Shown: in pieces, positions 1 through 13,411 of the stretch
How positions within the stretch are numbered: the stretch's first letter is position 1
How the letters are laid out: the number at the start of each line of letters is the position of its first letter
Virus record (IMG/VR): IMGVR_UViG_3300045284_000122
Location: 1 to 46,804 of that record
Origin: a virus
Reading direction: 5' to 3' (one strand)
DNA length: 46,804 nt
The notes under the pieces: model-generated
What the model was told of the DNA's origin: nothing
Databases searched by the model: none
What the model saw: only the letters and a program-made list of their open reading frames with translations
Position numbers and translations under genes: made by a program

Positions 1-127
1 CCAAGTACGTGCTCTGGGAGGTCGGAGACGTGAGGGCTTGGCGACTCGCCTGCGGGGCGTGGCATCAGCCCAGCTACACCGACCTGCTCGCTCAGGGCAA
101 GGCGCTGTCCTCCAATCCGAAGACGGA
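1..127. repeat. Left copy of the 127-bp terminal overlap (identical to 46678-46804)
   Basis: Direct base-by-base comparison of the window ends. Confidence 0.95.
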
Positions 128-1037: not shown

Positions 1038-1271
1038 GTGGAAGGTAATCAGGCGCCACCGGCGAACAGTCTCCGCGACATGCTCGACGCACTCGGAGAT
1101 GGGGCTAGGGCCGAACTAGCCCGCGAACTCAAAGTCTCGCCGGTCACCGTGAACCGCTGGGTTAATCGCGGCGTTCAGCCCCAGCGCCATTTCCGCAAGG
1201 CGATCCTCCGGTGGCTGCGTAAGCAGGACGGGCTCGCCGATCTCAAAGAGGTGGATCTGTGGCCGAGGTGA
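1038..1271 (+). CDS. Cro-like or early-regulator HTH protein
   Basis: ELARELKVSPVTVNRWVNRG is an HTH motif, and the gene is divergent from the repressor. The start is uncertain: GTG 1038 (possibly leaderless) or ATG 1079. Confidence 0.6.
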   Translation: MEGNQAPPANSLRDMLDALGDGARAELARELKVSPVTVNRWVNRGVQPQRHFRKAILRWLRKQDGLADLKEVDLWPR

Positions 1272-2059
1272 CCCAGCTCCCGGTCGCCTCTCTTCGCGCG
1301 GCGCTGCCCTACCTGCGGCGCCCGTTCACCCCCGAGGCGATCAAGTTCAAGGTGCAGGCCCAATTCGGCAGCCAGGGCCTGATCGTCGCCTACATCGACG
1401 CCCGGCTCGTGATCGAGCGGCTGAACATGGTCGTCGCCGAGCTCTGGCACGACGAGTACGAGCCGTTCGGGGACCGGATCGACTCCGGCTTCATGTGGTG
1501 CCACCTCACCGTTGCCGAGACGACCCGCTCCGACGTCGGCGAGTCAAAGGGCAAGGGCCTCGTCTCGGATGCCCTGAAGCGCGCGGCCGTCCGGTTCGGC
1601 GTCGGCGCCTCGCTCTACGCGATCCCTCGGTTCGTCCTCGGCGCGACGAAGAACGGGTCTGTCGACTCCAACAACACGCCGACCCTGAAGATCGTCAACT
1701 CGAAGAACAAAGACTCCTACCGGCTCACCCCGGAGTGCGAGGCGTGGCTTCGGGCTAAGTACTCCGACTGGCTGACGCAGACCGGCGCCCCGAACTTCGG
1801 AGAGGCCCTCGACCACGGCGACGTCGTCGGATCCATCGGCGATCCGGACGAGGCCGTGCCGGAGGAATCGGCCCAGGAGGATCTCGAGCTGGCCGCAGAG
1901 CGCGAGGCCGTCGAGCAGCTCTACGCCGAGAAGATCGTGGCCGGTAACGGCACCAAGTCGAAGTTCCCCAAGGGCCGCTTCACCGCCCAGCTCAAGGCGG
2001 CCGACACCCCCGAGAAGCTCGCCGAGATCCGCGCGAAGATCGAAGAGGTTGCCGCGTGA
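1259..2059 (+). CDS. Rad52/Sak-like single-strand annealing protein
   Basis: The pattern AYIDARLVIERLNMVVAELW and the segment RFGVGASLYAIP resemble the Rad52/22 family N-terminal domain (recognised from memory). Confidence 0.55.
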   Translation: MAEVTQLPVASLRAALPYLRRPFTPEAIKFKVQAQFGSQGLIVAYIDARLVIERLNMVVAELWHDEYEPFGDRIDSGFMWCHLTVAETTRSDVGESKGKGLVSDALKRAAVRFGVGASLYAIPRFVLGATKNGSVDSNNTPTLKIVNSKNKDSYRLTPECEAWLRAKYSDWLTQTGAPNFGEALDHGDVVGSIGDPDEAVPEESAQEDLELAAEREAVEQLYAEKIVAGNGTKSKFPKGRFTAQLKAADTPEKLAEIRAKIEEVAA

Positions 2060-2235
2060 AGCGGGTCGATGGCGTGGGCGGCTGCGTGACGCTCAAGCGG
2101 GGCTTCGCATCGAAGTCGAAGGCCCGCAAGTACCTGCGCGTCAACGCCGGCTCCTCGCCTGCCCGGCGGGTGTACGCCTGTCCCCATTGTGGAAACTGGC
2201 ACCTAACCAAGCAACGGAAGAAGGTGGCGGCGTGA
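2056..2235 (+). CDS. Small basic protein (59 aa) with a CPHCGNWH zinc-ribbon-like motif
   Basis: GTGA overlap with the upstream stop and very high GC3. It falls just below the 60-aa cutoff of the ORF track. Confidence 0.6.
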   Translation: MKRVDGVGGCVTLKRGFASKSKARKYLRVNAGSSPARRVYACPHCGNWHLTKQRKKVAA

Positions 2236-2387
2236 CCTGGCGCGAGATCCTCGCGATCACCATCGCCGCCGGGCTCTGGTCGGGCCTGATCGGGTTCCTC
2301 GCCGCCCCCCATCTGCGCTGGCGCTATCAGCGGCGCCACCCGTGGCGCCGGCCCGCTCCGACCATGCTCCCTCGGAGGCTGCCATGA
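2232..2387 (+). CDS. Small single-pass membrane protein (51 aa)
   Basis: GTGA overlap start and a TM segment ILAITIAAGLWSGLIGFLAA. Confidence 0.45.
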   Translation: MTWREILAITIAAGLWSGLIGFLAAPHLRWRYQRRHPWRRPAPTMLPRRLP

Positions 2388-2701
2388 ACCGAGTCATAAA
2401 CGCCCTGGACCGGATGAACGCGATCGGCGGTGAGTTCCACTCCGATCCGGGCCCCGACACCGTGCTCGGAGCGGGCTCGGACGAGCTCTGCCGGCGACTC
2501 GGTATCGAGCCGGGCGATGCCAAGGCCGCAGCGGAGCGTGCTGTCCTTCCATACGCCATCCACATCGCCCAGAGCCCGGAGTTTGAGATCGACCCGACCA
2601 ATGCCGAGTCGTTCCGGCTCCTGATCGCACTGCTCGCGGCTTCGTTCCTGGACGGGTTGTACACCGCAGGGTTCATGGAGGCGGTGCCTGCCCATGACTG
2701 A
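2384..2701 (+). CDS. Hypothetical protein
   Basis: ATGA overlap start preceded by GGAGG; high GC3. Confidence 0.6.
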   Translation: MNRVINALDRMNAIGGEFHSDPGPDTVLGAGSDELCRRLGIEPGDAKAAAERAVLPYAIHIAQSPEFEIDPTNAESFRLLIALLAASFLDGLYTAGFMEAVPAHD

Positions 2702-3212
2702 ACGGCTCTGTGAGTGCGGTTGCGGCGAGCCGGTGAGGAACCGATTCGTCAAAGGCCACCAGCGCAAGCGGCACTGCCGCGATCTCGAAGAGTTCACCGA
2801 AGATCCGACGACTCATTGTTGGGTCTGGAAACTCCATCTGAACGACGGATACGGGGCGCTGGAGATCCGGGGGAAGGAGCACCGCGCACACCGGGTGTTC
2901 TACGAGGAGCTGGTCGGCCCGATCCCCGACGGGCTGACCCTCGACCACCTCTGCCGGAATCGCGCGTGCGTGAATCCCGGGCACGTCGAACCGGTGACTT
3001 GGCGGGAGAACATCCTGCGAGGCGAGGGTCAAGGCGCCCGCAACGCCCGCAAGACCCACTGCAAGCACGGGCATCCCTTCGATCAGGAAAACACCGAATG
3101 GACCCTCCTCGGGCGGCGACGGTGCCGAGCCTGTAAGCGGCAAGCAGACGAGAGATACCGAGCGCGGAAGAGCGCCGTTCCCCAACCCACAGGAGGCACG
3201 AATGGCACCTAA
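2694..3212 (+). CDS. HNH homing endonuclease (HNH_3 type), paralog of 13022..13411
   Basis: CWVW...GYG...HRAHRVFYE..GPIPDG..LDHLCRNRACVNPGHVEPVT..EN. Confidence 0.85.
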   Translation: MTERLCECGCGEPVRNRFVKGHQRKRHCRDLEEFTEDPTTHCWVWKLHLNDGYGALEIRGKEHRAHRVFYEELVGPIPDGLTLDHLCRNRACVNPGHVEPVTWRENILRGEGQGARNARKTHCKHGHPFDQENTEWTLLGRRRCRACKRQADERYRARKSAVPQPTGGTNGT

Positions 3213-3501
3213 GCCCCAATCCCAGACGGCGCTCGACGAGACGGTCCTTGACGACCGCGAGCTGGAGAAGATCCTGGAGGACCGCGAGCGCGCGAAGGGC
3301 GCCGCGAGCGAGGCCCGGGGCAAGTTCACCACGGTCGATGAGATCGCGCGGGCCAAGATCACCGATCTCGGGCTCACCGATGGCGATGCTGTCCGGGTCG
3401 GGCGGTTCCGGGTCACCCAGTCCCGGGTCGAAGCCCGCACCGTCAACTTCGAGACGCAGCCCACCTCGCGGCTGAAGATCAACGCGACGGACGACGAATG
3501 A
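3202..3501 (+). CDS. Hypothetical protein
   Basis: AGGAGG lies 5 nt upstream of the ATG; high GC3. Confidence 0.65.
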   Translation: MAPKPQSQTALDETVLDDRELEKILEDRERAKGAASEARGKFTTVDEIARAKITDLGLTDGDAVRVGRFRVTQSRVEARTVNFETQPTSRLKINATDDE

Positions 3502-4619
3502 CAACGGCGACCGAGAAGCGCGGGATGTTCCCGTACTCGGTCAAGCGACCGGATACCGCTTCCCAGTCCCTGCTCGCCCGGATCGACGTCTGTCCCTTCA
3601 GCGGGGCGCTCTACATCGACTACAAGGGCGGCCCGCAGACCGCTGCGCTCGCCCGCGGGGAGGTCTGCCACCACTTCTTCGAGCGGGCGACGAACATGCT
3701 CATGGAGCAGGAGGAACCCTCGATGCCGCCCGAGGTCGGCAAGGATCTGATGCAGGCGATCATCGAGGAGCGGACCGATCTGGCGCTCCCGGCCGGTGAG
3801 CAGGAGTCGTGCCGGATCATCGCCTGGAACTGGTCGGAGGCGACGGTGCTCGACCTGAACTCCATCGTCTGCGTGGAGTCGATGCTCTCGCTCCAGATCG
3901 GCGAGTGGACGGTCAGGGGCCGGGTCGACCGGGCGGAGATCGCCGATCGCCAGGCGTTCGTCCGCGACTACAAGACGAGCCTCGCGATCCCTGACCAGGA
4001 GAAGTTCGAGCGGAGCTTCCAGACCCCGTTCTACGCGCTCCTGGTCGCTGAGGGCGTCCCGGAGGGCGAGTCGACCCCGATCGGCGAGGGACTCGACGCC
4101 TGCCATCTGATCGAGGAGTACCCGCGCTACCGCAGAGGCGATGATGGCTCCCTCGCGTCCCGGATCACGGTTGTCGACCGGGCCCAGCTCTTCGACTTCA
4201 AGCGGACCGTCGAGTCGCATCTCGCGAAGCTCGACCACGGGCTCGCAAAGGGGGAATGGGCAGCCTCCCCCGGCGCTCACTGCCAGACATGTCCCGCTTC
4301 CAGCGAGTGCCCGATCCCGCCCCATCTGCGCGAGGTGAAGACGATCGGCACCCAAGGCGACGCCGAGGAGATCGCCCAGCGGATCCTCTTCGTCGACGCC
4401 CAGGCGAAGGAGCTGAAGACCTCGCTGCGCGGCTGGGTCGATGAGAACGGGCCGGTCTATGCCGGCGATCTCGTCTTCGATCTGACCTACGCCGAGTCGG
4501 AGCGCCTGACCGACAAGGACGCCGTGAAGCGGATCGTCGAGGAGGCCGGGTACGACCCGGAGACGTTCTGGCGCAAGAGCCCAAGCACCCGATTCGGGAA
4601 GTCGAAGGTGAAGGCGTGA
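3498..4619 (+). CDS. PD-(D/E)XK nuclease, Cas4/RecB-like exonuclease
   Basis: Core motif GRVDRAEI...VRDYKTS, an N-terminal Cys and a C-terminal Cys cluster (CQTCPASSECP) typical of Cas4-type iron-sulfur nucleases. It sits in the same module as the annealing protein. Confidence 0.7.
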   Translation: MTTATEKRGMFPYSVKRPDTASQSLLARIDVCPFSGALYIDYKGGPQTAALARGEVCHHFFERATNMLMEQEEPSMPPEVGKDLMQAIIEERTDLALPAGEQESCRIIAWNWSEATVLDLNSIVCVESMLSLQIGEWTVRGRVDRAEIADRQAFVRDYKTSLAIPDQEKFERSFQTPFYALLVAEGVPEGESTPIGEGLDACHLIEEYPRYRRGDDGSLASRITVVDRAQLFDFKRTVESHLAKLDHGLAKGEWAASPGAHCQTCPASSECPIPPHLREVKTIGTQGDAEEIAQRILFVDAQAKELKTSLRGWVDENGPVYAGDLVFDLTYAESERLTDKDAVKRIVEEAGYDPETFWRKSPSTRFGKSKVKA

Positions 4620-4819: not shown

Positions 4820-5040
4820 CTGAGGCGCAGCGGGCAGAACTGGCGCTGGAGGTTGCCCGAGTGATTCTGCGCGAGTACGAGGTGATCTGTGACGCCCTAG
4901 AGCGCGAAGCGGGCTACCTGAACCGGATGCTGGAGCTCCACGGCATTGACCCGCCGGACTTCCATGACCGCGCCATGGTGTGCAACCGCTTCGGCCACGA
5001 CGCGCGAACGATGATTCAGAGAGTCGAAGCGGCGGCGTGA
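4816..5040 (+). CDS. Hypothetical protein
   Basis: GTGA overlap start; high GC3. Confidence 0.55.
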   Translation: MTEAQRAELALEVARVILREYEVICDALEREAGYLNRMLELHGIDPPDFHDRAMVCNRFGHDARTMIQRVEAAA

Positions 5041-5255
5041 AGATCCGCATCGTCGACAAGCACGGCCACGAGTTCATCCTCACCGACCCCGAGGTTGGCG
5101 AGTCCCGCCGCGGCCCGTTCTTCAGCGCCCGCTACCAGATGATCGACAAGATCGGGCCGTGGCCGGAGAACGAGGGCGACTTCTGGCTCAAGGATCTCGT
5201 GCTGATCGAGCCGGTCGACGAGCAGCTTGAAATGCAACTCCAGGAGGCAGCGTGA
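5037..5255 (+). CDS. Hypothetical protein
   Basis: GTGA overlap start at 5037 within ORF 4980..5255. Confidence 0.55.
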   Translation: MKIRIVDKHGHEFILTDPEVGESRRGPFFSARYQMIDKIGPWPENEGDFWLKDLVLIEPVDEQLEMQLQEAA

Positions 5256-5602
5256 TCATCAACGTTCATCTGCGGTACACGGTCTTCCAGTTCGTCTCAC
5301 GCCACGACTTGGTCAAGGTGCTGCCGCCGCGTCAGGAGGTCGCCGAGGGCGTGGACAAGGTCGGCGAACCCAAGGTGGTCGCTTGGGCCCGGGACAAGGG
5401 CGACCCTACGAACCCCGAATGGCGCCGGACCATCGTGCGCCGCATCCGGCGTCCCGCGATCGACTACATCGTCAACGCCGAGGACGAGGCGAAGAGCGAC
5501 GCTGATCTGCCTGCCAAGGAGGTCGCCGAGCATCGCCAGCGTCGGCATGCGGAACTCGATAAGGCGAACCAGCAGCCCGAGACGGCGAAGGCTGCGGCTT
5601 AG
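5252..5602 (+). CDS. Hypothetical protein
   Basis: GTGA overlap start; coding-type composition. Confidence 0.55.
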   Translation: MIINVHLRYTVFQFVSRHDLVKVLPPRQEVAEGVDKVGEPKVVAWARDKGDPTNPEWRRTIVRRIRRPAIDYIVNAEDEAKSDADLPAKEVAEHRQRRHAELDKANQQPETAKAAA

Positions 5603-5802
5603 TGGGGGATCTCCTCCACTTCCCGGTCAAGCCCCGGGCGACGCTCAGCAAGCGCCAGCTTGCCCGGTTCCTCGGCCGCTCCACTCGCTGGATCGAGCTC
5701 CGGACCGCTGAGGGTTGGCCGGCAAGCCGCGACCGAAACGGAGAGAGGCGATACGTTCTGGCCGAATGGCTTGAGCGGATGGACGAGGAGGGCGTTGCCT
5801 GA
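5602..5802 (+). CDS. xis: Excisionase-like HTH DNA-binding protein
   Basis: LSKRQLARFLGRSTRWIELRTAEGWPAS is a MerR/excisionase-type HTH. The gene is small and lies immediately upstream of the integrase with a 1-nt overlap. Confidence 0.65.
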   Translation: MGDLLHFPVKPRATLSKRQLARFLGRSTRWIELRTAEGWPASRDRNGERRYVLAEWLERMDEEGVA

Positions 5803-6920
5803 TGGGAGTCATACCCCGCGGGGGCAAGTTCGGGGCCCGGGTCTATCACCGGGGCGATTGGAACTGGGTCGGTACCTTCCATACCCGTGAGGAGGCCCAA
5901 GCCGCTCACGACTTCGCGAAGCAGGCCCGGAACAAGAGCCTCGCCACGATCACCCAGTTCGCCGACAGATGGATCCGCGAGTTCAACTACGCCACGAAGG
6001 GGGGGCGGGCGCGCTGGGGCGACTCCACGCTGGAGCAGTACCGGGGCCATCTCCGGGCGCTCACGAGGCCGTTCGGGAAGCGACGCATGATCGAGTTCAC
6101 GATCACCGACGCGCGCACCTGGGCGCTCGGCCAGCCCGAGGCTTATGTGCGGACGGCCGCCGCGATGTTCGCCGATGCCCGGCGCGACGAGTTGATCCCT
6201 CAGAACCCGTTCGAGAAGCTCAGGCTCCCGCGCTCTGAAGGCCGGCGCCACATCGTCGCGATCACGTTTCTGGAGCTCGAGAAGCTCTGCGAGATCGCCC
6301 GCTCCACCTGGGGGCTCACCTTCGAGGCGATGGTCGCGGTCGGCGGCTACTCGATGTTGCGTCCGGGCGAGATCTTCGCCCTGACCCCCGACGCGATCGA
6401 CTACGAGAAGGGCGAGATCCACGTCACGCACGCGTTCTCGAAGACCGGCGAGCACAAGGCGCCGAAGAACCGCAAGCCGCGCCGGGTCTTCATGCCGCCG
6501 GACGCGAGCCGGCGGGTGATGTCCGTTCCCCGCAACCTGAAGTCGCCCTGGCTGTTCGTCAACAAGCGGGGCGAGCGGTTCCGCGCCGGCTCCCTGCACT
6601 ACCGCTGGGACAAGGTCGTGAGCGCGTTCGAGGCCCAGTTGCCGGAGGAGCGGCGCCGAGAGCTCCAGATCGCCCGCGGGAACAAGGAGATGGACTTTTA
6701 TGAATTAAGGCACCATGGAGCGACCGAGAGACTCCGGCGGGGCGTTAGCCCGCAAGACGTCGCTCAGGAGATGGGCCATACGGACGCCACGCTGGTAACG
6801 CGGCTCTACGGGCACCCCGAGGACGAGCACCGGCTCGCCCGGGTCAAGGCCGTGTTTGAGCAGAACGTCACCGAGCTCCAGCCGGTCCGGGACGCAGAAT
6901 CAGACGCAGCGGAAGGCTGA
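5802..6920 (+). CDS. int: Tyrosine integrase with an N-terminal AP2-like DNA-binding domain
   Basis: N-terminus GKFGARVYHRGDWNWVGTFHTREEAQAAHDFA is AP2-like. The catalytic region has LRPGEIFAL and HELRHHGAT...GHTDATLVTRLYGH, giving the R..HxxR..Y signature. Confidence 0.9.
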   Translation: MGVIPRGGKFGARVYHRGDWNWVGTFHTREEAQAAHDFAKQARNKSLATITQFADRWIREFNYATKGGRARWGDSTLEQYRGHLRALTRPFGKRRMIEFTITDARTWALGQPEAYVRTAAAMFADARRDELIPQNPFEKLRLPRSEGRRHIVAITFLELEKLCEIARSTWGLTFEAMVAVGGYSMLRPGEIFALTPDAIDYEKGEIHVTHAFSKTGEHKAPKNRKPRRVFMPPDASRRVMSVPRNLKSPWLFVNKRGERFRAGSLHYRWDKVVSAFEAQLPEERRRELQIARGNKEMDFYELRHHGATERLRRGVSPQDVAQEMGHTDATLVTRLYGHPEDEHRLARVKAVFEQNVTELQPVRDAESDAAEG

Positions 6921-7207
6921 GCAGGCGTGCTTTCGTGGCTTCACAACCTGCTCGGGGCGCTGACCCGAAAGGTGCGAAGTCTCCACCTTCCGGACCCGCG
7001 AACCGCTCCACCATGGGCTAACTGGCCGCATCGGTTCCCGGCGCCCCCCGAAACCCTCGCACCAAGCGCCGGCATCCGACGCAGGGAGTCACGGCGCCAG
7101 GACGCAGATCGGGACGCGTCGAGCGTGGAAAGGCGAACGCCACCACACGGGCTCCGCTTCTCGACGGTCACGCCGCGCCGACGCCGCGGGCTGCCCCGCT
7201 ACACGGA
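6921..7207. other. Candidate attP-containing non-coding region downstream of int
   Basis: A 287-bp gap without a convincing ORF directly after the integrase. It contains an imperfect hairpin at 6965-6993. The core site could not be identified from sequence alone. Confidence 0.3.
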
Positions 7208-7234
7208 ATGGATCAACCAACGAAGGGAGAGCGC

Positions 7235-7990
7235 GTGAATCGGCTTGCGTTGAAGTTCGTAGACGAGGAGAACCGAGGCAGACATTCGGGGTTCCAGTGG
7301 CCCGTGCCGAACGGCAAGCCGGGCAAGTGGGTCGAGGCCGAGGGCAAGTTGGTCGTCTGCCGAAACGGTATTCACGCCTGCCTTCTGCCCCACGCCTCCG
7401 AGTGGCTGAATCGGAACGTCTATTTGATTGAACTCGATGGCGAGGTTTCCGACGAAGGCGACAAGCTCATGGCGCGGCGTGGGCGGTTGGTCCGATCCCT
7501 CGAATGGGACGACTCGCGGATGCGACTGTTCGCGGCCGACTGCGCGGAGCGGGTGCTGCCGAGCTTCGAGAAGGAGCGGCCGAAGGACGACCGACCTCGC
7601 AAGGCGATTGAAGCGGCGAGGGCTTATGCCCGAGGCGAGATTGATGACGCCGCACGGGCCGCCGCATGGGCCGCCGCACGGGACGCCGCACGGGCCGCCG
7701 CATGGGACGCCGCATGGGACGCCGCATGGGACGCCGTACGGGCCGCCGCACGGGCCGCCGCACGGGCCGCCGCATGGGACGCCGCATGGGACGCCGCACG
7801 GGACGCCGCATGGGACGCCGCATGGGCCGCCGCACGGGACGCCGCACGGGCCGCCGCACGGGCCGCCGCACGGGCCGCCGCATGGGACGCCGCATGGGAC
7901 GCCGCATGGGCCGCCGAGCGCAAGTGGCAGGGGGAACGGCTCGCCTACTACTTGAAGTTGACCCCCACCGAAATCAGAGCCGTCTCGTGA
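7235..7990 (+). CDS. Moron protein with three parts: an N-terminal CxxGxH beta-type domain, an Imm-5-like helical segment, and a 22-unit (D/A)AA(W/R) tetrapeptide repeat
   Basis: GTG 7235 is preceded by GAAGGGAGAG; the ORF is also open from ATG 7208. The segments VVCRNGIHAC and FAADCAERVLPSFEKERPKDDRPRKAIEAARAYARGE resemble the DUF7666/Imm-5-like architecture (from memory). A perfect 4-aa repeat array follows. Confidence 0.8.
   Translation: MNRLALKFVDEENRGRHSGFQWPVPNGKPGKWVEAEGKLVVCRNGIHACLLPHASEWLNRNVYLIELDGEVSDEGDKLMARRGRLVRSLEWDDSRMRLFAADCAERVLPSFEKERPKDDRPRKAIEAARAYARGEIDDAARAAAWAAARDAARAAAWDAAWDAAWDAVRAAARAAARAAAWDAAWDAARDAAWDAAWAAARDAARAAARAAARAAAWDAAWDAAWAAERKWQGERLAYYLKLTPTEIRAVS
7646..7909 (+). 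repeat. Intragenic tandem repeat: 22 units of 12 bp, g(a/c)cgccgca(c/t)gg
   Basis: Counted unit by unit. Units differ essentially only at base 2 (a/c, giving D/A) and base 10 (c/t, giving R/W). Unit 8 has one extra c>t change (A>V). A degenerate 23rd unit lies at 7910-7921. Confidence 0.95.
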
Positions 7991-8046
7991 CGGAATGGAT
8001 CAAGGAGCGGAGATGAAAGCAATAGCCAGGACGTGCCAGGACGACG

Positions 8047-8184
8047 ATGGGTAGCGTCGAGTTCTTCTGCGGCTGGCTCCACGGCCCGGTGTCGCGCTTT
8101 CCCTACGTCCAGTTCGTGCGCTGCGGCTGGGGGCTCATCTTCTACAACCGCCGAGGCGAGTTCATCAGAGAGTGGCCGAAGTGA
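8047..8184 (+). CDS. Small hypothetical protein (45 aa, Cys/Trp-rich)
   Basis: GC3 is about 90 percent in this frame. It is below the ORF-track cutoff and fills the gap before 8226. Confidence 0.55.
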   Translation: MGSVEFFCGWLHGPVSRFPYVQFVRCGWGLIFYNRRGEFIREWPK

Positions 8185-8225
8185 ACGGTCACGTCACCGC
8201 TACCGACCGACAAGGAGCTGAACGC

Positions 8226-8654
8226 ATGAGCAAGGCCAACACCCAGACGGCGCCATACCCCGACGAGCTCGCCGACCTGGTGAGCACGATGAGCTACCGC
8301 CCTGGCTGGCAGTTTGTCCTCGAGCATCTCGACCGCGGCCAGGGCTCGGAGGGCCTGACGTTCAAGGTGCTGACCAAGGGGTATGACACCTACAACCCCG
8401 AGCGCGGCGAGACCTACTGCGTGTGGCACTACTTCCCGGTTCCGCCGGCCGCCTATGACCGCCGGGCCTGGCAGCGCTGGCTGCTCGACCAGCTGCTCGA
8501 CGTCGAGATCCACGAGGCCTGCGAGTTCTTCCAGATTGGGGGCGAACGCCCGTTCGCCCCCAACCACGGTCCGGGCCGCGACCCGTACACGATCCTCGAG
8601 CTGGGCACCGACCTGGACGCGCGGACCTCGTTCCGGGGCGGGGTGGGTGCCTGA
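8226..8654 (+). CDS. Hypothetical protein
   Basis: ATG 8226 is preceded by AAGGAG at an 8-nt spacing, inside ORF 8172..8654. Confidence 0.7.
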   Translation: MSKANTQTAPYPDELADLVSTMSYRPGWQFVLEHLDRGQGSEGLTFKVLTKGYDTYNPERGETYCVWHYFPVPPAAYDRRAWQRWLLDQLLDVEIHEACEFFQIGGERPFAPNHGPGRDPYTILELGTDLDARTSFRGGVGA

Positions 8655-8890
8655 TGGAGCTGTCGGATGCAGAGCGCCAGGAGGTCTACAGCCTCTATTA
8701 CCGCTACCGACGGGAGCTGGAGGAGGCACAGGAGCGCTACGACCTGGCGCATGTCGCTCGGGGCCTCGATTCGGTTGACCAGGGGGCATGGAGTGCGAGC
8801 GACTCCCTCGGCGGCGGTGCTGCCGTGGTCAGGCAGGCGCTTCGTCGCCTCTACAAGGAGCTGACGCGGACGGCCGAGAGGCAGCCGTGA
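8654..8890 (+). CDS. Hypothetical protein
   Basis: TGATG overlap start; coding composition. Confidence 0.6.
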   Translation: MELSDAERQEVYSLYYRYRRELEEAQERYDLAHVARGLDSVDQGAWSASDSLGGGAAVVRQALRRLYKELTRTAERQP

Positions 8891-9108
8891 GCCGCCGCTG
8901 GAAGCCCCCCAAGAACCGTGACGCGGATGAAAACCGATTCCTCGGGGCGCTCGATGGAGTGGCGGGCGACGGTTGGCACCACCTCTCCGGTGTGCCTTAT
9001 TGCCGCTGCTGCGAGGTTGAGGCTGGCGAGCCGCATGCTGAGGGCTGCCCCGTCGATGCGGTCAACGCGGCCCTCCTGCCCTGGAGGAAGGCCCGAGCCG
9101 ATGCCTAA
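8887..9108 (+). CDS. Hypothetical Cys-rich protein
   Basis: GTGA overlap start inside ORF 8788..9108; motif CRCC...EGC. Confidence 0.5.
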   Translation: MSRRWKPPKNRDADENRFLGALDGVAGDGWHHLSGVPYCRCCEVEAGEPHAEGCPVDAVNAALLPWRKARADA

Positions 9109-9559
9109 AGCGATCGCCCTATCGAACGCGGAGATTCGCACCGTCCGAGAGGCGATGCGCGTTGCCCTTCCGCGTATCGCTCGTCAGCCCCTCCGAGGAG
9201 AAGGGGGAGGAGTGAGCGAAGGCCACCACGTGATCCCGAAGCAGCGGATCAAGATCCGTCGCTCAGCGGTCGCGATCAAGGACAAGCGCCACGAGCGGCT
9301 CTCACCCGGCGAGCGACGACTCCTCGTCACCCCGCTCACCCGAATCCTCGCCGACCGCCGCAACATCGTCCGGATCTCCCGCAAGCTTCACCACCGGGCT
9401 CATCAGGGCTTTGAGCGACTCACCGCGGCCCAGCTCCCCGCCGGCCTCCAGGACTTCGCGGCCGACTACGGGCTCGAGGCCGCTCTCGATCACGAACTCC
9501 GGCTCCTCGGCATCTCCGTGGAGGAACTGGAAAGTGGAAAGCGAACACTCACCGCATGA
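9101..9559 (+). CDS. Small HNH-motif nuclease
   Basis: EGHHVIPKQ ... NIVRISRKLHHRAH gives an HH..N..H..H pattern. ATG 9101 overlaps the upstream stop. Confidence 0.5.
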   Translation: MPKAIALSNAEIRTVREAMRVALPRIARQPLRGEGGGVSEGHHVIPKQRIKIRRSAVAIKDKRHERLSPGERRLLVTPLTRILADRRNIVRISRKLHHRAHQGFERLTAAQLPAGLQDFAADYGLEAALDHELRLLGISVEELESGKRTLTA

Positions 9560-10011
9560 GCCCGAGCGAACCAGAGCCGCGCGCTGTTGAGATCTCGATC
9601 CCGGGCGATCCGGTGCCCTGGGCTCCGAAGCAGGTAGCCAAGAAGACCGGCAACCGCTTCCTGCCTTCCCGCCAGGCCAAGCACGCCGACACGATCCTCG
9701 TCGCGGTCGAGCGGGCGATCGACGCCGGCGCCGAGCCCTTCGGCAAGGAGCCGCTCTGCCTCCAACTGGAGTTCGTCCTCACGCGGCCGAAAGCCCACTT
9801 TGGCACTGGCAAGAACGCCGACGTGCTGAAGGACAGCGCGCCCCCTGTGCCGATGGGCAAGCCTGACCTCTCGAACCTCGTGAAGCTCGTCGAGGACGGA
9901 CTCGTGCTCGGCGGCCTGATCCCGGACGACGATCAGGTGGTTTCCATCGTGGCCGACAAGTTCTACGGCCGGCGAGCCCGCTCCAACGTCTTGATCGGAC
10001 CGGCCGAGTGA
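9556..10011 (+). CDS. rusA: RusA-family Holliday junction resolvase
   Basis: KPDLSNLVKLVEDGLVLGGLIPDDDQVVSI matches the RusA signature (PDxDNL..K...D.L......DD..V). Confidence 0.8.
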   Translation: MSPSEPEPRAVEISIPGDPVPWAPKQVAKKTGNRFLPSRQAKHADTILVAVERAIDAGAEPFGKEPLCLQLEFVLTRPKAHFGTGKNADVLKDSAPPVPMGKPDLSNLVKLVEDGLVLGGLIPDDDQVVSIVADKFYGRRARSNVLIGPAE

Positions 10012-10244
10012 ACCCCGGCATCGGGATCGGCCTCGTGGCGCTCTTCGCGGTGCTGTGCATCGTCACGGACGGCGGCCGATGGGAAACCGAGCCGGGCGTG
10101 ATCTACGTCACCGAGGACGACTTGAACGGGGCCAGCTTCACGGTGGTCGACGGCTGCGGCTGGCTCTGGGACGAACGGGCGCTTGAGCACTTGGACTGGT
10201 TCCCGCTGGGTCGGCCTTACGACTGGGCGCTCGACGGCGCGTGA
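10008..10244 (+). CDS. Small membrane protein
   Basis: N-terminal TM segment GIGIGLVALFAVLCIV; GTGA overlap start. Confidence 0.55.
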   Translation: MNPGIGIGLVALFAVLCIVTDGGRWETEPGVIYVTEDDLNGASFTVVDGCGWLWDERALEHLDWFPLGRPYDWALDGA

Positions 10245-10555
10245 GGACGTGCGAGCGATGCGGTGCCCGATTCGAGGGCAAACGGGCTGACGCGCGGTTC
10301 TGCTCCGAAAAGTGCCGTCTCGACCACTGGCTCGCGGAACACCCCGAAGCCCCGCGTAGCCGTTCGGAACGGCTCTCACAGCATCCCCGGCGCCGGTCAC
10401 GCGACGGTAACGGCACGCGCCTTTACCTGAGCCCGCTGGAGGTCGCCTACCTGATCGACGTCCTAGTCGACTACCCCGACACCCGCGACGCCCCGCTTCA
10501 GGGCGTGCTCGCCAAGCTCGCTAAAGCCCACGACCGGATTGAGGAGAACGGATGA
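10241..10555 (+). CDS. Zinc-ribbon protein
   Basis: CERCGARFEGKRADARFCSEKCR forms a CxxC...CxxxC motif. Confidence 0.6.
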   Translation: MRTCERCGARFEGKRADARFCSEKCRLDHWLAEHPEAPRSRSERLSQHPRRRSRDGNGTRLYLSPLEVAYLIDVLVDYPDTRDAPLQGVLAKLAKAHDRIEENG

Positions 10556-10737
10556 ACGATCTGCATTACAACTGCCCGTTCTGTCTCTGGGGAGTCACCC
10601 AGAAGCAGTACGACGAGAAGGCGCTCGAACTCATCAGAGAGGCCCTGGAGCCGATCGGATTGACGCTTGAGCGACACGGAGTTAGCTGGTCACTGGAGAG
10701 TCCGCACGGCACTCACGGCACGCTCCGGTTGGGCTGA
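10552..10737 (+). CDS. Hypothetical small protein with a CPFC motif
   Basis: ATGA overlap start; coding composition. Confidence 0.5.
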   Translation: MNDLHYNCPFCLWGVTQKQYDEKALELIREALEPIGLTLERHGVSWSLESPHGTHGTLRLG

Positions 10738-11516
10738 TGAGCGGGTTCGTGATGGGCCGCGTCTGGACGCTGGAACTGAGCAAGGGCCAGCAGACGGTGC
10801 TCCTAGCGCTGGCCGATCATGCTCACGACGACGGAACGAGCGTCTTCCCGAGCATCGGCTACACGGCCTGGAAGACCGGCTACCAGCGACGCCACGTACA
10901 GCGCATGTTCCGGGAGCTCCAGGAGGCAGGCGTGCTAGTCGAAGTGGCGCCAGCGACTCGGCGCCTGCCGACCGAGTACCGGATCGTGATCGAAGCTGGG
11001 CGCGAGAAGGTTCCGTATGACGCTAGGGGCGACATCGACGACAAGGAGGGGCGTCCTAACGGTGCATCAGGGGCGGTCCCCAGGACGCCCAAACCGTCAA
11101 AGGAACCATCAAAAGAACCGGGCCGTTCTTCAGAGAGAGAGAACATCGACCACATCTGGACTCACTACGCCAACCTCATGCACGTGCGTCGTCCGAGAAA
11201 CGCCGACGACGTTCGGATCATCCGCGGCGCTCTGGCCGTCGCTACCCCCGCTGAGTGCCGGCTCGCGATCTACGGGTGCAGCCGCGCCGACTTCCACATG
11301 AAGCGCGGCGACTCTGAGGGCCGCTCCGGGCCCAAGTACAACAAGCTCTCCCAGATCCTGAAGGGCAAGCGGGGCGGCAAGACGACGCGCGAGCAGATCG
11401 AGATGTTCGTCGAGATCGCACGGGCGAACACCGACCCGCCGACCAAGGGCAAGCCGAGCACGGTCTTCGACGAGGAAACGGCCGCCGAAGGCAGGCGGGC
11501 GCTCGGCCGTGAGTGA
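10737..11516 (+). CDS. Replication initiator or helicase-loading protein (winged helix plus a phage-conserved C-terminal domain)
   Basis: N-terminal segment VLLALADHAHDDGTSVFPSIGYTAWKTGYQRRHVQRMFRELQEAGVL is winged-HTH like. The C-terminal block RIIRGALAV..ECRLAIYGC...KYNKLSQIL is Phg_2220_C-like. The gene lies directly upstream of DnaB. Confidence 0.6.
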   Translation: MSGFVMGRVWTLELSKGQQTVLLALADHAHDDGTSVFPSIGYTAWKTGYQRRHVQRMFRELQEAGVLVEVAPATRRLPTEYRIVIEAGREKVPYDARGDIDDKEGRPNGASGAVPRTPKPSKEPSKEPGRSSERENIDHIWTHYANLMHVRRPRNADDVRIIRGALAVATPAECRLAIYGCSRADFHMKRGDSEGRSGPKYNKLSQILKGKRGGKTTREQIEMFVEIARANTDPPTKGKPSTVFDEETAAEGRRALGRE

Positions 11517-12822
11517 GGCCCCGCCCCACGACCTGGACGCCGAGATGAGCGTGCTCGGCGCGATGCTGACGACCGATCAGGCGGTGCGGGTCGTGCCGGT
11601 GCAGACGGGGTTGCGTTCCGGGCACTTCTACCGCGAGACGCACGCCGCGATCTACATGGCCTGCATCCGGGTCGCCGCTCGAGGGGAGGGAGTCGACGCG
11701 ATCACCGTCTGGGACGAGCTCTGCCGCTCCGAGACGCCTCCGGGCATCACCCGCGAGAGGCTGAACGAGCTCGCCGGGTTCCCGCCCTCGCCCGGTAATG
11801 CCCCGCACTACGCCCGGATCGTGATTGAGACGGCCGAGCTCCGCGGCTACCTAGCGGGCGCGCGCCAGATCCAGCAGGGCGTGCACGACCACGATCGCGT
11901 CGCGATCCAGGAGGGAATCGAAGCGGTCGCGAAGCCGGTCCAGGAGACGGGCGAGCCTGCCGAGCCGAACGAGTTGAGCCATGCCGTGTGGGAGTACCTG
12001 AACGCCAAGGGCGAGCCGGAAGTGTTCGAGCTGCCGTGGCCGAGCATGAACGAGCACATCGGCGCCGGCGGCTTCCTGCGCGGCGAGTTCACGATCCTGA
12101 CCGGCTGGACGAACCTCGGCAAGTCGATCGCGCTCGACCAGATGCTGCGCCACTTCCACGAGCAGGGCAAGCGGTGCTGGCTCTTCTGCACCGAGATGGG
12201 CTGGCTCGAGCGCTCCCTTCGACACGTCACGGCCGAGACAGCGGTGCCCTACTCGAAGCTGATCCGCCGCCAACCGCTCACTGAGCAGGAGCGAACGGAC
12301 GTGAGAACCGCGCTTGACGCGATGCCGTTCGGCTTTCGCGACGCCTCGGGCTGGCCCGCTACCCAGATCTCGCAGGAGATCGTCGCGCGGAAGGTCGACA
12401 TCGCGGCGATCGACCCGCTCAACCTGATCCCGTTCAAGGACACCCGCGAGTACGACGAGGTGCTGCGCCAGCTGAAGGAAACCGCGGTGCGCGCCAACTG
12501 CCACATCGTCGCGATCTCGCAGCTCAACATGGCCCGCTTCCGCGACCAGAATCCCCCGTCGCCGGCCCTGCGCGACATTCGCGACTCAGGCAACGCGCAA
12601 TATATTGCCAGCCACATCGTTAGCGTCCATCGCACTTACAGGGATGGGGAACCGACCAAGACCGGGGAAATCCGCTTCCTCAAGGTCAGGAATGGCGTGA
12701 CCGGGCGGTGCAAGGTCGAATTCATCCCAGGCGCGTTTAGGTTCGTAGAGCCGAAGCCCGCGCCTCCGCCCGAACCTAGCGAGGTTGTCATGGACTTCAC
12801 GGGTACGGATGAAGCCGACTGA
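11509..12822 (+). CDS. dnaB: DnaB-family replicative helicase
   Basis: N-terminal PPHDLDAEMSVLGAMLT, a Walker A-like ILTGWTNLGKSIAL, and the later RDSGNAQYIAS block. Confidence 0.9.
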   Translation: MSEAPPHDLDAEMSVLGAMLTTDQAVRVVPVQTGLRSGHFYRETHAAIYMACIRVAARGEGVDAITVWDELCRSETPPGITRERLNELAGFPPSPGNAPHYARIVIETAELRGYLAGARQIQQGVHDHDRVAIQEGIEAVAKPVQETGEPAEPNELSHAVWEYLNAKGEPEVFELPWPSMNEHIGAGGFLRGEFTILTGWTNLGKSIALDQMLRHFHEQGKRCWLFCTEMGWLERSLRHVTAETAVPYSKLIRRQPLTEQERTDVRTALDAMPFGFRDASGWPATQISQEIVARKVDIAAIDPLNLIPFKDTREYDEVLRQLKETAVRANCHIVAISQLNMARFRDQNPPSPALRDIRDSGNAQYIASHIVSVHRTYRDGEPTKTGEIRFLKVRNGVTGRCKVEFIPGAFRFVEPKPAPPPEPSEVVMDFTGTDEAD

Positions 12823-13021: not shown

Positions 13022-13411
13022 ATGGCGCCGCGCTACATCGAAGAGGATCGCGGCTTCACGACGCCGTGCTGGGTCTGGCAACTTCAGATCGGCCGCGGCG
13101 GGTACGGGTACGTGAAGCGAGGCGGCAGGCCACGCAGGGCTCACCGCGTCTTCTATGAGGACCGTTATGGCCCGATCCCTGATGGCATGCAGCTCGACCA
13201 CCTCTGCAAGCAGCGAGCCTGTGTCAATCCCGACCACCTTGAGGCGGTCACGCACACGGAGAACGTGCGACGAAGCAGCCTGACGCACCTCACGACGGAG
13301 AGCGTGCAGGAGATACGCGAGGCGAGTGGCTCTCAGCGCCAGATCGCACGCCGGTTCGGGATCTCGCAGGGTCAGGTGTCACGGATCAGAGCGGGCCATA
13401 GCTGGGCCTAA
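13022..13411 (+). CDS. HNH homing endonuclease (HNH_3) with a C-terminal HTH, near the packaging genes
   Basis: CWVWQ..GGYGYV...RRAHRVFYEDRYGPIPDGMQLDHLCKQRACVNPDHLEAVTHTEN, followed by QRQIARRFGISQGQVSRI. Confidence 0.85.
   Translation: MAPRYIEEDRGFTTPCWVWQLQIGRGGYGYVKRGGRPRRAHRVFYEDRYGPIPDGMQLDHLCKQRACVNPDHLEAVTHTENVRRSSLTHLTTESVQEIREASGSQRQIARRFGISQGQVSRIRAGHSWA

What the first reader, a model, noticed from the sequence alone, without database searches (positions are those of the whole stretch)
7235..7990. Moron next to attP encodes a protein ending in 22 perfect (D/A)AA(W/R) tetrapeptide repeats written in a two-position binary code
Bases 7646-7909 are 22 head-to-tail 12-bp units g(a/c)cgccgca(c/t)gg. 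Apart from one c>t change, the units vary only at base 2 (Asp or Ala) and base 10 (Arg or Trp), giving four unit types: DAAR, DAAW, AAAR and AAAW. They appear in a non-random order, for example AAAR-AAAR-AAAW-DAAW recurring at units 9-12 and 18-21. If helical, a 4-residue period would place the Trp/Arg positions on one slowly precessing stripe and the Asp/Ala positions on another along a helix of roughly 90 residues. That geometry suggests a Trp/Arg cation-pi ladder, which I have not seen described. The upstream part (VVCRNGIHAC, then FAADCAERVLPSFEKERPKDDRPRKAIEAARAYARGE) resembles, from memory, the DUF7666 plus Imm-5-like putative immunity architecture. The gene has its own RBS and sits just downstream of attP, a classic place for lysogen-expressed immunity or exclusion genes. 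In-frame 12-bp units also make the array prone to length variation by slippage or recombination without loss of frame.
Basis: partly seen in the sequence, partly recalled or inferred. Interest (0 to 1): 0.75.

Follow-up and report, generated by a model that had tools for sequence, protein, structure and literature searches.

The report
Phage protein with shuffling tetrapeptide-repeat hairpin
The repeat is real, but it is the normal feature of a very large, unstudied family of phage early proteins, in which an alanine-rich 4-residue repeat, predicted to form a helical hairpin, is rapidly lengthened, shortened and reshuffled while only two residues per unit vary; its function is unknown.

Summary
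Confirmed: window 7646-7909 is 22 in-frame 12-bp units G(A/C)CGCCGCA(C/T)GG with one extra C>T. They lie in a 251/260-aa gene (7235 or 7208 to 7990, + strand). Pfam confirms the recalled architecture, DUF7666 plus Imm5_like. The array is not unusual for its family. About 4,000 cluster representatives exist, mostly on 30-60 kb phage contigs from many bacterial phyla, and nearly all carry (D/A)AA(W/R/G) arrays of 4-30 units. Across 36 independent arrays, synonymous bases are almost invariant within an array (2.4% minority) but differ between arrays (60%), while bases 2 and 10 vary at 36% and 48%. Proteins with identical N-termini differ in length by multiples of 4 residues. This indicates concerted evolution by unit gain, loss and shuffling, with selection keeping a Trp/Arg/Gly and Asp/Ala mix. 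It is not a DGR or a mutational hotspot. AlphaFold predicts a two-helix hairpin inserted between the Imm5-like core helices and a conserved C-terminal cap, not one 90-residue helix. The gene sits co-oriented in the early recombination/replication module of a complete circular SU10-like phage genome. I found no moron features, and attP is unverified. Function is unknown; an immunity-like or counter-defence binder is my inference.

The parts
5802..6920 (+). Tyrosine integrase, upstream neighbour, co-oriented
   Evidence: PF00589 Phage_integrase, E 8.8e-13
6921..7234 (.). Intergenic gap; possible attP, unverified
   Evidence: No ORF with coding-like composition. Imperfect inverted repeat 7021-7044/7066-7089. 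No tRNA or Rfam match. No host sequence available to define a core.
7223..7229 (+). Shine-Dalgarno AAGGGAG, 5 nt before GTG 7235
   Evidence: Read directly from the sequence
7235..7990 (+). Coding sequence of the DUF7666/Imm5-like repeat protein (251 aa from GTG 7235; in-frame ATG 7208 would give 260 aa)
   Evidence: ORF list; Pfam hits; homologue N-termini start at the MNRLALKF equivalent
7247..7513 (+). DUF7666 beta-rich N-terminal domain (aa 14-102 in 260-aa numbering)
   Evidence: PF24703, E 8.3e-9, above cutoff. AlphaFold strands with pLDDT 95-98. Foldseek matches to BFVD DUF7666 proteins, E 2.7e-5, probability 1.0.
7511..7630 (+). Two conserved core helices of the Imm5-like domain (RLFAADCAERVLPSFE... 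and RPRKAIEAARAYA)
   Evidence: PF21805 match covers aa 105-185. AlphaFold helices H102-123 and H129-141. Near-invariant R106 L107 F108 D111 C112 R129 P130 R131.
7646..7909 (+). 22 x 12-bp array encoding (D/A)AA(W/R); predicted helical hairpin (helix aa 147-193, turn 194-197, helix from aa 198)
   Evidence: array; structure; pLDDT 73-76 in the first arm, about 55 at the turn, 79-97 in the second arm
7738..7798 (+). First copy of the 61-bp exact internal duplication (second copy 7846-7906)
7846..7906 (+). Second copy of the 61-bp exact internal duplication
7910..7987 (+). Conserved C-terminal cap (AAERKWQGERLAYYL...)
   Evidence: An E/D-x-x-W-Q/H motif is present in the last 60 residues of 87 of 120 homologues. 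pLDDT 91-97. The cap is kept, with pLDDT about 91, in the model of a one-unit variant.

Best explanation
The gene encodes an ordinary member of a very large, uncharacterised family of phage early proteins. The protein has three parts: an N-terminal DUF7666 beta domain; the two core helices of an Imm5-like helical domain; and a conserved C-terminal cap helix. Between the core helices and the cap lies a variable-length alanine-rich helical hairpin built from 4-residue units, (D/A)AA(W/R/G). The array evolves by concerted evolution. Whole units and blocks of units are gained, lost and reshuffled by slippage or unequal recombination much faster than point mutations accumulate, so all units of one array share the same synonymous bases. 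Selection at the protein level keeps Ala-Ala at the two middle positions. It also keeps a mixture of Asp/Ala at the first position and Trp/Arg/Gly at the fourth. These are the only residues that differ, each by one base (GAC/GCC; TGG/CGG or AGG/GGG). These steps are shown or follow directly from the data. The function is inferred. The helical domain is related to Imm5 immunity proteins. The gene stands alone in the early recombination, replication and methylase region. The hairpin changes fast between near-identical phages. On these grounds I think it most likely acts early in infection as a stoichiometric binder or neutraliser of a host- or competitor-encoded effector, with the hairpin as a quickly changeable interaction arm or spacer.
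For: Family and architecture: Pfam DUF7666 + Imm5_like, both above cutoff. There are 4,624 hits at E<=1e-3 among the candidates scored. The N-terminal 137 aa alone finds 3,987 representatives of 50%-identity clusters (1,163 at E<=1e-10). Repeats are the family norm: all 120 top hits have 4-30 in-register units (median 14). Position 1 is A 50% / D 39%, positions 2-3 are A 95-97%, and position 4 is W 36% / R 36% / G 17%. Concerted evolution: in 36 arrays (592 units) the minority-base fraction is 2.4% at synonymous bases 3/6/9 and 2.7% at the other constrained bases, against 36% at base 2 and 48% at base 10. 22 of 36 arrays show no synonymous variation at all. Arrays carry 16 different synonymous signatures and differ at 60% of those bases. 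In this window the third codon is GCA in 21 of 22 units, although GCA makes up only 5% of Ala codons in this phage. Unit turnover: 90%-identity clusters with identical N-termini have lengths 164/192/220/228/244/252 and 234/282/286/290/294/310/338 aa, nearly all steps being multiples of 4. L054 and L062 are 92% identical in the core. Their core differs at codon positions 1/2/3 by 7/5/19. Their arrays differ by 12/10/2, almost only at bases 2 (8 of 18 units) and 10 (11 of 18 units). Against hypermutation: each array uses either AGG or CGG for Arg, with both in only 2 of 36 arrays. The A at base 9 never varies in this window. There is no second copy of the array in the window. No reverse transcriptase was found among the 30 neighbouring ORFs scanned. 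Structure: AlphaFold mean pLDDT 87.6, pTM 0.76, helices 147-193 and 198-248. A natural one-unit variant keeps the beta domain, the core helices and the cap. Context: Rad52-like annealase, PD-(D/E)XK nuclease, integrase, RusA, HTH_36 protein and DnaB surround the gene here. Gam, ERF, RecT, WhiB, primase and methylases surround homologues. Immunity link: Imm5 is a predicted immunity domain for DYW-deaminase and CdiA-CT toxins and occurs in polyimmunity proteins (PMC3482391). Relatives with 3-12 tandem Imm5-like modules exist. A Rhodopirellula relative lies two genes from a SUKH-1 immunity gene.
Against: No experiment bears on function. No toxin gene or any other conserved partner lies next to the gene: the largest neighbour family is present in only 7 of 97 loci. 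PADLOC and NCBIfam give nothing. The classical Imm5 model scores below its cutoff (22.8 vs 25). Neither model has a significant fold match in the PDB. Length differences inside clusters come from short-read metagenome assemblies and could partly be assembly collapse. The hairpin prediction rests on an alignment that cannot be in register across a repeat, and its first arm has only pLDDT 73-76. Array lengths from 1 to 30 units among close relatives could equally mean that length hardly matters.
Confidence: 0.6

Rival explanations
1. This is a lysogen-expressed moron next to attP, whose ~90-residue single helix carries a Trp/Arg cation-pi ladder and acts as an immunity or exclusion factor in the prophage state.
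For: The integrase lies immediately upstream, followed by a 314-bp non-coding gap. The gene has its own Shine-Dalgarno. Imm5-like similarity is real. W-R and R-W neighbours at i,i+4 are enriched about 1.2-fold family-wide, and W-W and R-R are depleted.
Against: The gene is co-oriented with its neighbours in a genome that is almost entirely + strand. It has no promoter or terminator signal above chance and no marked compositional departure (non-repeat part 63% GC vs 67% for the window). Of the five homologue contigs examined gene by gene, only one phage (L004/L005) has an integrase near the gene. Phage_integrase is not among the 25 commonest neighbour families. AlphaFold predicts a hairpin, not one helix. 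In this window like neighbours at i,i+4 (12) outnumber W/R pairs (9) (unit list). Asp at position 1 and Arg at position 4 are statistically independent.
Confidence: 0.1
2. The array is functionally neutral filler. It is a slippage-prone low-complexity insertion tolerated in a solvent-exposed hairpin, and all function resides in the DUF7666/Imm5-like core.
For: Near-identical proteins carry from 1 to about 26 units. The one-unit variant is still predicted to fold. Unit order in the window is statistically random. Positions 1 and 4 are independent. Multi-module bacterial relatives have non-repetitive Ala-rich segments in the same place.
Against: All 120 top hits keep an array, and 76 of the 85 loci first examined encode an array of at least 4 units; the hosts span many phyla. 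The amino-acid pattern is conserved although codons differ between arrays. Position 1 is almost only D or A, although Val and Gly are equally one mutation away (1.6% and 1.4%). Position 4 is 36% Trp, normally a rare residue encoded by a single codon. There is a mild but significant avoidance of W-W and R-R neighbours.
Confidence: 0.2
3. Assembly artefact: the array, or its length and unit order, was produced by a short-read assembler.
For: The contig ends overlap by exactly 127 bp, the signature of a k=127 de Bruijn assembly of short reads. The 264-bp array is longer than typical reads. Length variants inside 90%-identity clusters often sit on short contigs.
Against: The longest exact internal repeat is 61 bp, well below k=127, so every 127-mer across the array is unique and the path is determined. 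The same kind of array is found in many independent assemblies and in long contigs.
Confidence: 0.05
4. Targeted diversification: a diversity-generating retroelement or another site-specific mutator acts on bases 2 and 10.
For: Variation is confined to two bases per unit. All four bases occur at base 10 across the family. Variation is 15-20 times higher there than at synonymous sites.
Against: The adenine at base 9 in this window (22 of 22) and at base 6 in L003 (21 of 21) never varies. There is no template copy elsewhere in the window. No reverse transcriptase was found among the 30 neighbouring ORFs scanned. AGG and CGG Arg codons coexist in only 2 of 36 arrays, whereas a mutator at base 10 would mix them.
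Confidence: 0.02
5. The repeat acts at the nucleic-acid level (structured RNA, recombination or regulatory element), and its coding content is incidental.
For: The units are GC-rich and GCC-like, and such sequences can form slipped structures (my own knowledge).
Against: The array RNA folds less stably than every one of 200 shuffles (z = +7.4). There is no Rfam match. The peptide pattern is conserved across arrays that use different codons. The frame is continuous with two Pfam domains and a conserved cap.
Confidence: 0.02

Closest known systems
Imm5 / Imm5_like predicted immunity proteins of polymorphic toxin systems (PF14423, PF21805; Zhang et al. 2012, PMC3482391)
   Same: The sequence matches PF21805 above cutoff. 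Both are mostly alpha-helical with conserved Asp and Arg residues. Relatives occur as multi-module 'polyimmunity-like' proteins and near a SUKH-1 immunity gene.
   Different: The gene is phage-encoded and fused to DUF7666. No toxin gene is adjacent here or in 97 related loci. The Ala-rich middle of the domain has become a perfect 4-residue tandem repeat. The classical Imm5 model is just below cutoff.
DUF7666 (PF24703) proteins of phages and giant viruses
   Same: The N-terminal beta domain matches by sequence and by fold (BFVD, E 2.7e-5 to 1e-3, probability 1.0). In those viral proteins too the domain is joined to helical repeat regions (ankyrin, DUF4116).
   Different: Here the partner is an Imm5-like helical domain with a tetrapeptide array. 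The function of DUF7666 is unknown everywhere.
TAL effector repeat arrays (repeat-variable di-residues); comparison from my own knowledge
   Same: Tandem units are nearly identical at the DNA level, with variation confined to two residues per unit. The arrays are prone to recombination and change in unit number.
   Different: TAL units are 34 residues, form a superhelix around DNA, and their two variable residues are adjacent and specify a base. Here units are 4 residues, the variable residues are at i and i+3 and statistically independent, and there is no evidence of any nucleic-acid or polymer target.
Plasmodium circumsporozoite protein NANP/NVDP tetrapeptide repeats; comparison from my own knowledge
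   Same: Both are 4-residue units of a few types, with DNA-level homogenisation, length polymorphism between close strains, and a host-parasite conflict setting.
   Different: The CSP repeat is a disordered surface antigen of a eukaryotic parasite. Here the repeat is predicted helical and cytoplasmic (my inference, not tested with a signal-peptide or membrane-segment predictor) and lies in a phage early protein.
Alanine-rich helical antifreeze proteins (type I AFP and the long hairpin form 'Maxi'); comparison from my own knowledge
   Same: Both are alanine-rich periodic sequences forming long helices, and in Maxi a helical hairpin.
   Different: AFPs have an 11-residue period with Thr, and bind ice. 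Here the period is 4 residues with Trp/Arg/Gly. No sequence or fold match was found.

Membership tests
Imm5_like (PF21805) | Sequence match to the family model above Pfam's gathering score | tested here: met
   37.1 bits vs cutoff 25, E 3.5e-9, aa 105-185 on profile positions 11-87 of 129
Imm5 (PF14423), immunity protein of polymorphic toxin systems | Sequence match above the gathering score | tested here: not met
   22.8 bits vs cutoff 25; some homologues carry the precomputed PF14423 label
Imm5 (PF14423), immunity protein of polymorphic toxin systems | Gene lies immediately next to a polymorphic toxin gene (DYW deaminase, CdiA-CT) or in a polyimmunity locus (PMC3482391) | tested here: not met
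   Neighbours in the window are the integrase, small unassigned ORFs and RusA. There is no conserved neighbour in 97 loci, and no toxin domain among the 25 commonest neighbour families. Only a distant bacterial relative (L122) lies near a SUKH-1 gene.
Imm5 (PF14423), immunity protein of polymorphic toxin systems | Binds and neutralises a cognate toxin | not testable with these tools
   Needs co-expression or binding experiments
DUF7666 (PF24703) | Sequence match above the gathering score and the same fold | tested here: met
   36.3 bits vs cutoff 27; Foldseek hits to BFVD DUF7666 proteins, E 2.7e-5, probability 1.0
Phage moron | Autonomous transcription unit (own promoter and terminator) inserted between genes of a module, usually with deviant composition | tested here: not met
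   0 promoter-like sites (0.3 expected) and 3 terminator-like sites (2.9 expected) in 5000-10500. The gene is co-oriented with its neighbours. GC of the non-repeat part is 63% vs 67% for the window. The sigma-70 scan may not suit this unknown high-GC host.
Phage moron | Expressed from the prophage | not testable with these tools
   No expression data
attP-adjacent gene | A core sequence shared with a bacterial attB in the gap next to the integrase | tested here: inconclusive
   The 314-bp gap has imperfect inverted repeats but no tRNA or Rfam match. The host is unknown, so no core could be sought.
Diversity-generating retroelement target | Reverse transcriptase and a template repeat nearby, with variation at positions that are adenine in the template | tested here: not met
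   No second copy of the array. No reverse transcriptase among the 30 neighbouring ORFs scanned. The adenine at base 9 is invariant in 22 of 22 units.
Concertedly evolving coding tandem repeat | Units within an array are more alike at neutral sites than units of different arrays, and unit number varies between close relatives | tested here: met
   2.4% vs 60% at synonymous bases. Cluster members differ by multiples of 4 aa. L054 vs L062.

The most novel reading that the evidence does not exclude
The array is a fast-evolving recognition surface: a phage 'contingency locus'. Unit number, and the Asp/Ala and Trp/Arg/Gly choices along a helical hairpin, would be continually reshuffled by recombination, possibly helped by the single-strand annealing proteins encoded nearby. 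This would let the protein keep binding, or keep escaping, variable host defence or toxin proteins. It would be a repeat code comparable in logic to TAL-effector variable residues, but built from 4-residue units and spread across phages of many bacterial phyla.
Probability: 0.15. Interest if true: 0.8.

Novelty: new member of a known kind. Interest (0 to 1): 0.45.

Why it matters
For this window the result is deflating. The gene is one more member of a database family (DUF7666 + Imm5_like), its repeat is typical of that family, and the 'moron at attP' framing does not hold. The family itself, however, looks under-appreciated. It has thousands of members in phages of many phyla, no literature and no solved structure. 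Its repeat also evolves in an unusually clean way, with synonymous sites frozen within each array and two codons per unit turning over to saturation between phages that are 92% identical elsewhere. That pattern is typical of proteins engaged in host-parasite conflict. It makes the family a reasonable candidate for a new class of phage counter-defence or immunity-like proteins, and a tractable model for how coding tandem repeats evolve in viruses.

Tried and rejected
(1) Cultured-phage relatives. blastn of 5000-12000, and tblastn of both the whole protein and the N-terminal 146 aa against 50,697 GenBank phage records, gave no match.
(2) Close relatives of this gene for an array comparison. The exact protein is not on record. 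A 23-mer just upstream of the array is absent from viral and metagenome contigs. The comparison was therefore made on other family members.
(3) Solved relatives. A profile search of PDB sequences found only designed helical repeats at E>0.01. Foldseek against the PDB, for both the full model and the repeat-less model, found nothing below E 0.39.
(4) Helical periodicity. I looked for a 9-unit (36-residue) periodicity in the W pattern, as expected if the stripe had to face a partner helix once per turn. None was found (lag 9, z = 1.6). Only a lag-1 avoidance (z = -6.1) and a weak even-lag preference appeared.
(5) Salt bridges. Asp at position 1 and Arg at position 4 (i,i+3) are independent (observed/expected 1.0).
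(6) Conserved partner gene. Clustering of 629 neighbouring ORFs from 97 loci found none.
(7) Defence-system and NCBIfam models gave no hit.
(8) RNA-level function. There is no Rfam hit, and the array folds worse than shuffles.
(9) DGR or mutational hotspot: rejected (see rival explanations).
(10) Literature on DUF7666, Imm5_like, PF numbers, and tetrapeptide or alanine-rich phage repeats: nothing found.
Full report
THE OBSERVATION. Window 7646-7909 is exactly 22 head-to-tail 12-bp units, G(A/C)CGCCGCA(C/T)GG. Base 2 is A in 12 and C in 10 units, and base 10 is C in 11 and T in 11. Base 8 is T once (unit 8, Ala>Val). The other nine bases never vary. TRF finds the array (period 12, 22.6 copies, score 381). 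A two-unit degenerate pattern matches 22 times against 0.02 expected in shuffles, and nowhere else in the window. The units translate to DAAW x7, AAAR x6, DAAR x4, AAAW x4 and DAVR x1.

The array lies in an ORF running from 7208 (ATG) or 7235 (GTG) to 7990 on the + strand. GTG 7235 is the likelier start. It is preceded by AAGGGAG at 7223-7229, and homologues begin at the equivalent MNRLALKF. The protein does not end in the repeats: a 26-residue tail, AAERKWQGERLAYYLKLTPTEIRAVS, follows.

The claimed non-random order is weak. Run counts of D/A and of W/R equal the shuffle expectation. The recurrence of units 9-12 at 18-21 is part of one 61-bp exact duplication at an offset of 108 bp, and a recurrence that long appears in 202 of 5000 shuffles.

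WHAT THE PROTEIN IS. Pfam gives DUF7666 (aa 14-102, 36.3 bits, cutoff 27) and Imm5_like (aa 105-185, 37.1 bits, cutoff 25). Classical Imm5 is just below cutoff (22.8 vs 25). PHROGs gives only families of unknown function. NCBIfam and PADLOC give nothing.

The family is very large. There are 4,624 hits at E<=1e-3 among the candidates scored. With the non-repetitive N-terminal 137 aa alone, 3,987 representatives of 50%-identity clusters match, 1,163 of them at E<=1e-10. Almost all are unnamed metagenome proteins, many on contigs of 30-60 kb.

A scan of species-representative genomes finds relatives in bins assigned to many groups. These include Bacteroidetes, Chloroflexi, Nitrospirota, Deltaproteobacteria, Actinomycetes, Armatimonadia, Betaproteobacteria, Acidobacteriota and Saccharibacteria, as well as Deinococcus and Rhodopirellula. 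No GenBank phage record matches. No paper in the library mentions DUF7666, Imm5_like or their accession numbers.

THE REPEAT IS A FAMILY TRAIT. All 120 best hits have 4-30 in-register tetrapeptide units (median 14; the window's 22 is in the upper part of the range). Position 1 is Ala 50% / Asp 39%, positions 2-3 are Ala 95-97%, and position 4 is Trp 36% / Arg 36% / Gly 17%. A motif of the form E/D-x-x-W-Q/H lies in the last 60 residues of 87 of the 120. The 'binary code' is therefore real, but it is the rule for the family. Family-wide it is a two-by-three code.

HOW THE ARRAY EVOLVES. I extracted the DNA of arrays from 85 loci, of which 76 held an array of at least 4 units. In the 36 arrays with at least 9 units in clean register (592 units), the fraction of units departing from the array's own consensus is as follows:
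- synonymous bases 3, 6 and 9: 2.4%
- the seven other constrained bases: 2.7%
- base 2: 36%
- base 10: 48%

22 of the 36 arrays show no synonymous variation at all. Between arrays, however, there are 16 different synonymous signatures, and the consensus units differ at 60% of those bases. In this window the third codon is GCA in 21 of 22 units, although GCA is the rarest Ala codon of this phage (5%). The uniformity therefore reflects common descent of the units, not codon preference.

Each array encodes Arg with either AGG or CGG. Only 2 of 36 arrays contain both. This argues against a mutator that saturates base 10. It argues for a few founding point changes followed by amplification and shuffling of unit types.

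Direct comparisons agree with this.
- Members of 90%-identity clusters with identical N-terminal domains have lengths 164, 192, 220, 228, 244 and 252 aa, or 234, 282, 286, 290, 294, 310 and 338 aa. Nearly all steps are multiples of 4 residues and include multi-unit blocks.
- Two phages from one sample (L054, L062) are 92% identical in the core. Their core differs at codon positions 1/2/3 by 7/5/19, as purifying selection predicts. Their arrays differ by 12/10/2, almost only at base 2 (8 of 18 units) and base 10 (11 of 18 units). This is essentially saturation.

The conclusion is concerted evolution by unit gain, loss and reshuffling. On top of this, protein-level selection fixes Ala-Ala and keeps a D/A and W/R/G mixture. 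Val and Gly at position 1 are equally one mutation away, yet reach only 1.6% and 1.4%.

A DGR is excluded. The adenine at base 9 is invariant. No template copy exists in the window. No reverse transcriptase was found among the 30 neighbouring ORFs scanned. A role as structured RNA is also excluded: the array folds worse than all 200 shuffles (z = +7.4), and there is no Rfam hit.

STRUCTURE. AlphaFold2 with 62 sequences gives mean pLDDT 87.6 and pTM 0.76. The model has a beta-rich domain (aa 12-98, pLDDT 95-98) and core helices at 102-123 and 129-141. Two long helices follow, 147-193 and 198-248, with a turn at 194-197, and then a short terminal helix. The array is thus predicted to be a helical hairpin of roughly 70 A whose end, the conserved cap, returns to the core. 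It is not predicted as one ~90-residue helix. Confidence is moderate in the first arm (pLDDT 73-76) and low at the turn (about 55).

A natural variant with a single unit (P0139, 164 aa) is predicted with the same beta domain and core helices, a low-confidence linker, and a confident cap helix. This fits an insertion of variable length between core and cap.

Neither model has a significant match in the PDB. In BFVD the N-terminal domain matches DUF7666 proteins of giant viruses and phages. Several of these join the domain to other helical repeats (ankyrin, DUF4116), and a few are rIIB-like proteins.

However, I found no 9-unit periodicity in the family and no Asp-Arg coupling within a unit. There is a modest avoidance of like neighbours (W-W 0.82, R-R 0.87; W-R 1.20, R-W 1.16 observed/expected). 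This is compatible with W/R i,i+4 contacts but does not demonstrate them. These sequences are related to one another, so the p-values are optimistic.

GENOMIC SETTING. The two ends of the window overlap by exactly 127 bp. It is therefore a closed circular contig of about 46.7 kb from a k=127 assembly, meaning a complete phage genome rather than an integrated prophage. The longest exact repeat inside the array is 61 bp, so the array is resolvable at that k.

Nearly all genes are on the + strand. The identified genes, in order, are:
- a Rad52-like annealase (1259-2056)
- a PD-(D/E)XK nuclease (3498-4616)
- the integrase (5802-6917)
- the repeat gene
- RusA (9556-10008)
- an HTH_36 protein (10737-11513)
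- DnaB (11509-12819)
- an HNH endonuclease (13022-13408)
- an SU10-type portal (18450-20342) and major capsid protein (28752-29915)
- a lytic transglycosylase (42841-44265)

The gene is thus part of the early recombination/replication module. I found no promoter or terminator signal above chance and no strong compositional departure.

In other phages the gene sits beside Gam and ERF, RecT, WhiB, a primase, or methylases. Of the five homologue contigs examined gene by gene, only one phage (L004/L005) has an integrase near the gene. Clustering of 629 neighbouring ORFs from 97 loci finds no conserved partner; the largest group occurs in 7 loci. A Pfam scan of 150 neighbours is led by DNA methylases, RecT and PD-(D/E)XK/YqaJ nucleases, with no toxin domain. 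The 'moron next to attP' label is therefore not supported. The 314-bp gap after the integrase may well hold attP, but nothing here shows it.

FUNCTION (INFERRED). Imm5 was defined as a mostly helical predicted immunity domain associated with DYW-family deaminase and CdiA-CT toxins, and it is frequent in polyimmunity proteins (PMC3482391). Relatives of the helical core occur as proteins with 3-12 tandem Imm5-like modules that carry non-repetitive Ala-rich segments where the phage proteins carry the array. In Rhodopirellula, one relative lies two genes from a SUKH-1 immunity gene.

These links, the early-gene position and the conflict-like evolution of the hairpin lead to my best guess. The protein is a stand-alone immunity-like or counter-defence binder, and the hairpin is a quickly changeable arm. 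I put this functional part at roughly 0.3. The family assignment, the evolutionary mechanism and the hairpin topology I hold at 0.8-0.9, 0.8 and 0.6 respectively.

The main rival is that the array is tolerated filler. That rival is weakened because the array persists across the family and the residue set is tightly restricted.

VERDICT. For this window the finding is a typical member of a known but uncharacterised family. The family-wide behaviour of the repeat appears undescribed and is the part worth following up.

Noticed in passing
window 1-127 and 46678-46804: The two ends of the window are identical over exactly 127 bp. The window is therefore a circularly closed contig (about 46,677 bp unique) from a k=127 short-read assembly, meaning a complete phage genome rather than an integrated prophage.
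   Followed up: partly
window 7208-7645 (aa K16, W41, C51, G54, H56, K86, R93, D111, C112 in 260-aa numbering): Across 62 homologues, His56 and Cys112 are invariant, and Cys51 and Asp111 nearly so. One set lies in the beta domain and the other in the first core helix. This could be a metal site or a catalytic dyad bridging the two domains. I had no model coordinates to check whether the residues are close in space.
   Followed up: no
P0165 (2410 aa), P0187 (1789 aa), P0198, P0229, P0242: These are large proteins with 3-12 tandem Imm5-like modules, each ending in a WQW(R/H)RL cap. They carry non-repetitive Ala-rich segments where the phage proteins have the tetrapeptide array. They resemble the 'polyimmunity proteins' of Zhang et al. 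2012.
   Followed up: partly
L054 and L062 (IMG/VR contigs from sample 3300032770): Two co-occurring phages have genes 92% identical in the core and arrays of the same length. The two variable positions are scrambled to saturation, while synonymous sites in the array hardly differ.
   Followed up: yes
window 1259-4616 and 9556-12819: The repeat gene is flanked by a full recombination set (Rad52-like annealase, PD-(D/E)XK nuclease, RusA resolvase) and by DnaB. Homologues also tend to sit beside RecT/ERF/Gam and DNA methylases. Whether the phage's own annealase drives the array rearrangements is untested.
   Followed up: no
window 18450-20342 and 28752-29915: The portal and major capsid protein match the SU10 (Kuravirus-type podovirus) families (E 5e-22 and 7e-48). 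Yet the genome has no nucleotide or protein match to the repeat gene region among 50,697 GenBank phage records. It appears to be a high-GC (67%) uncultured lineage.
   Followed up: partly
window 7428-7955 (+2 frame), 7666-8016 (+3 frame), 7467-7907 and 7624-7923 (- strand): The array creates long spurious ORFs in other frames and on the opposite strand (PHGPPHGT..., MGRRTGRR..., MRRPMRRPV..., HAASHAAARA...). Gene callers could mis-annotate these.
   Followed up: yes
neighbours of homologues, alignment A2: Two of the 150 neighbouring proteins sampled are pentapeptide-repeat proteins (E 2.7e-70), a class that includes DNA mimics. This could be coincidence.
   Followed up: no
BFVD hits E3PZ83 and A0A678ZRE9: The DUF7666-like fold is also detected, weakly (E about 0.05, probability 0.98), in N4-type rIIB-like proteins. 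The rII proteins counter abortive-infection exclusion, so this is a faint hint of a conflict role for the domain.
   Followed up: no
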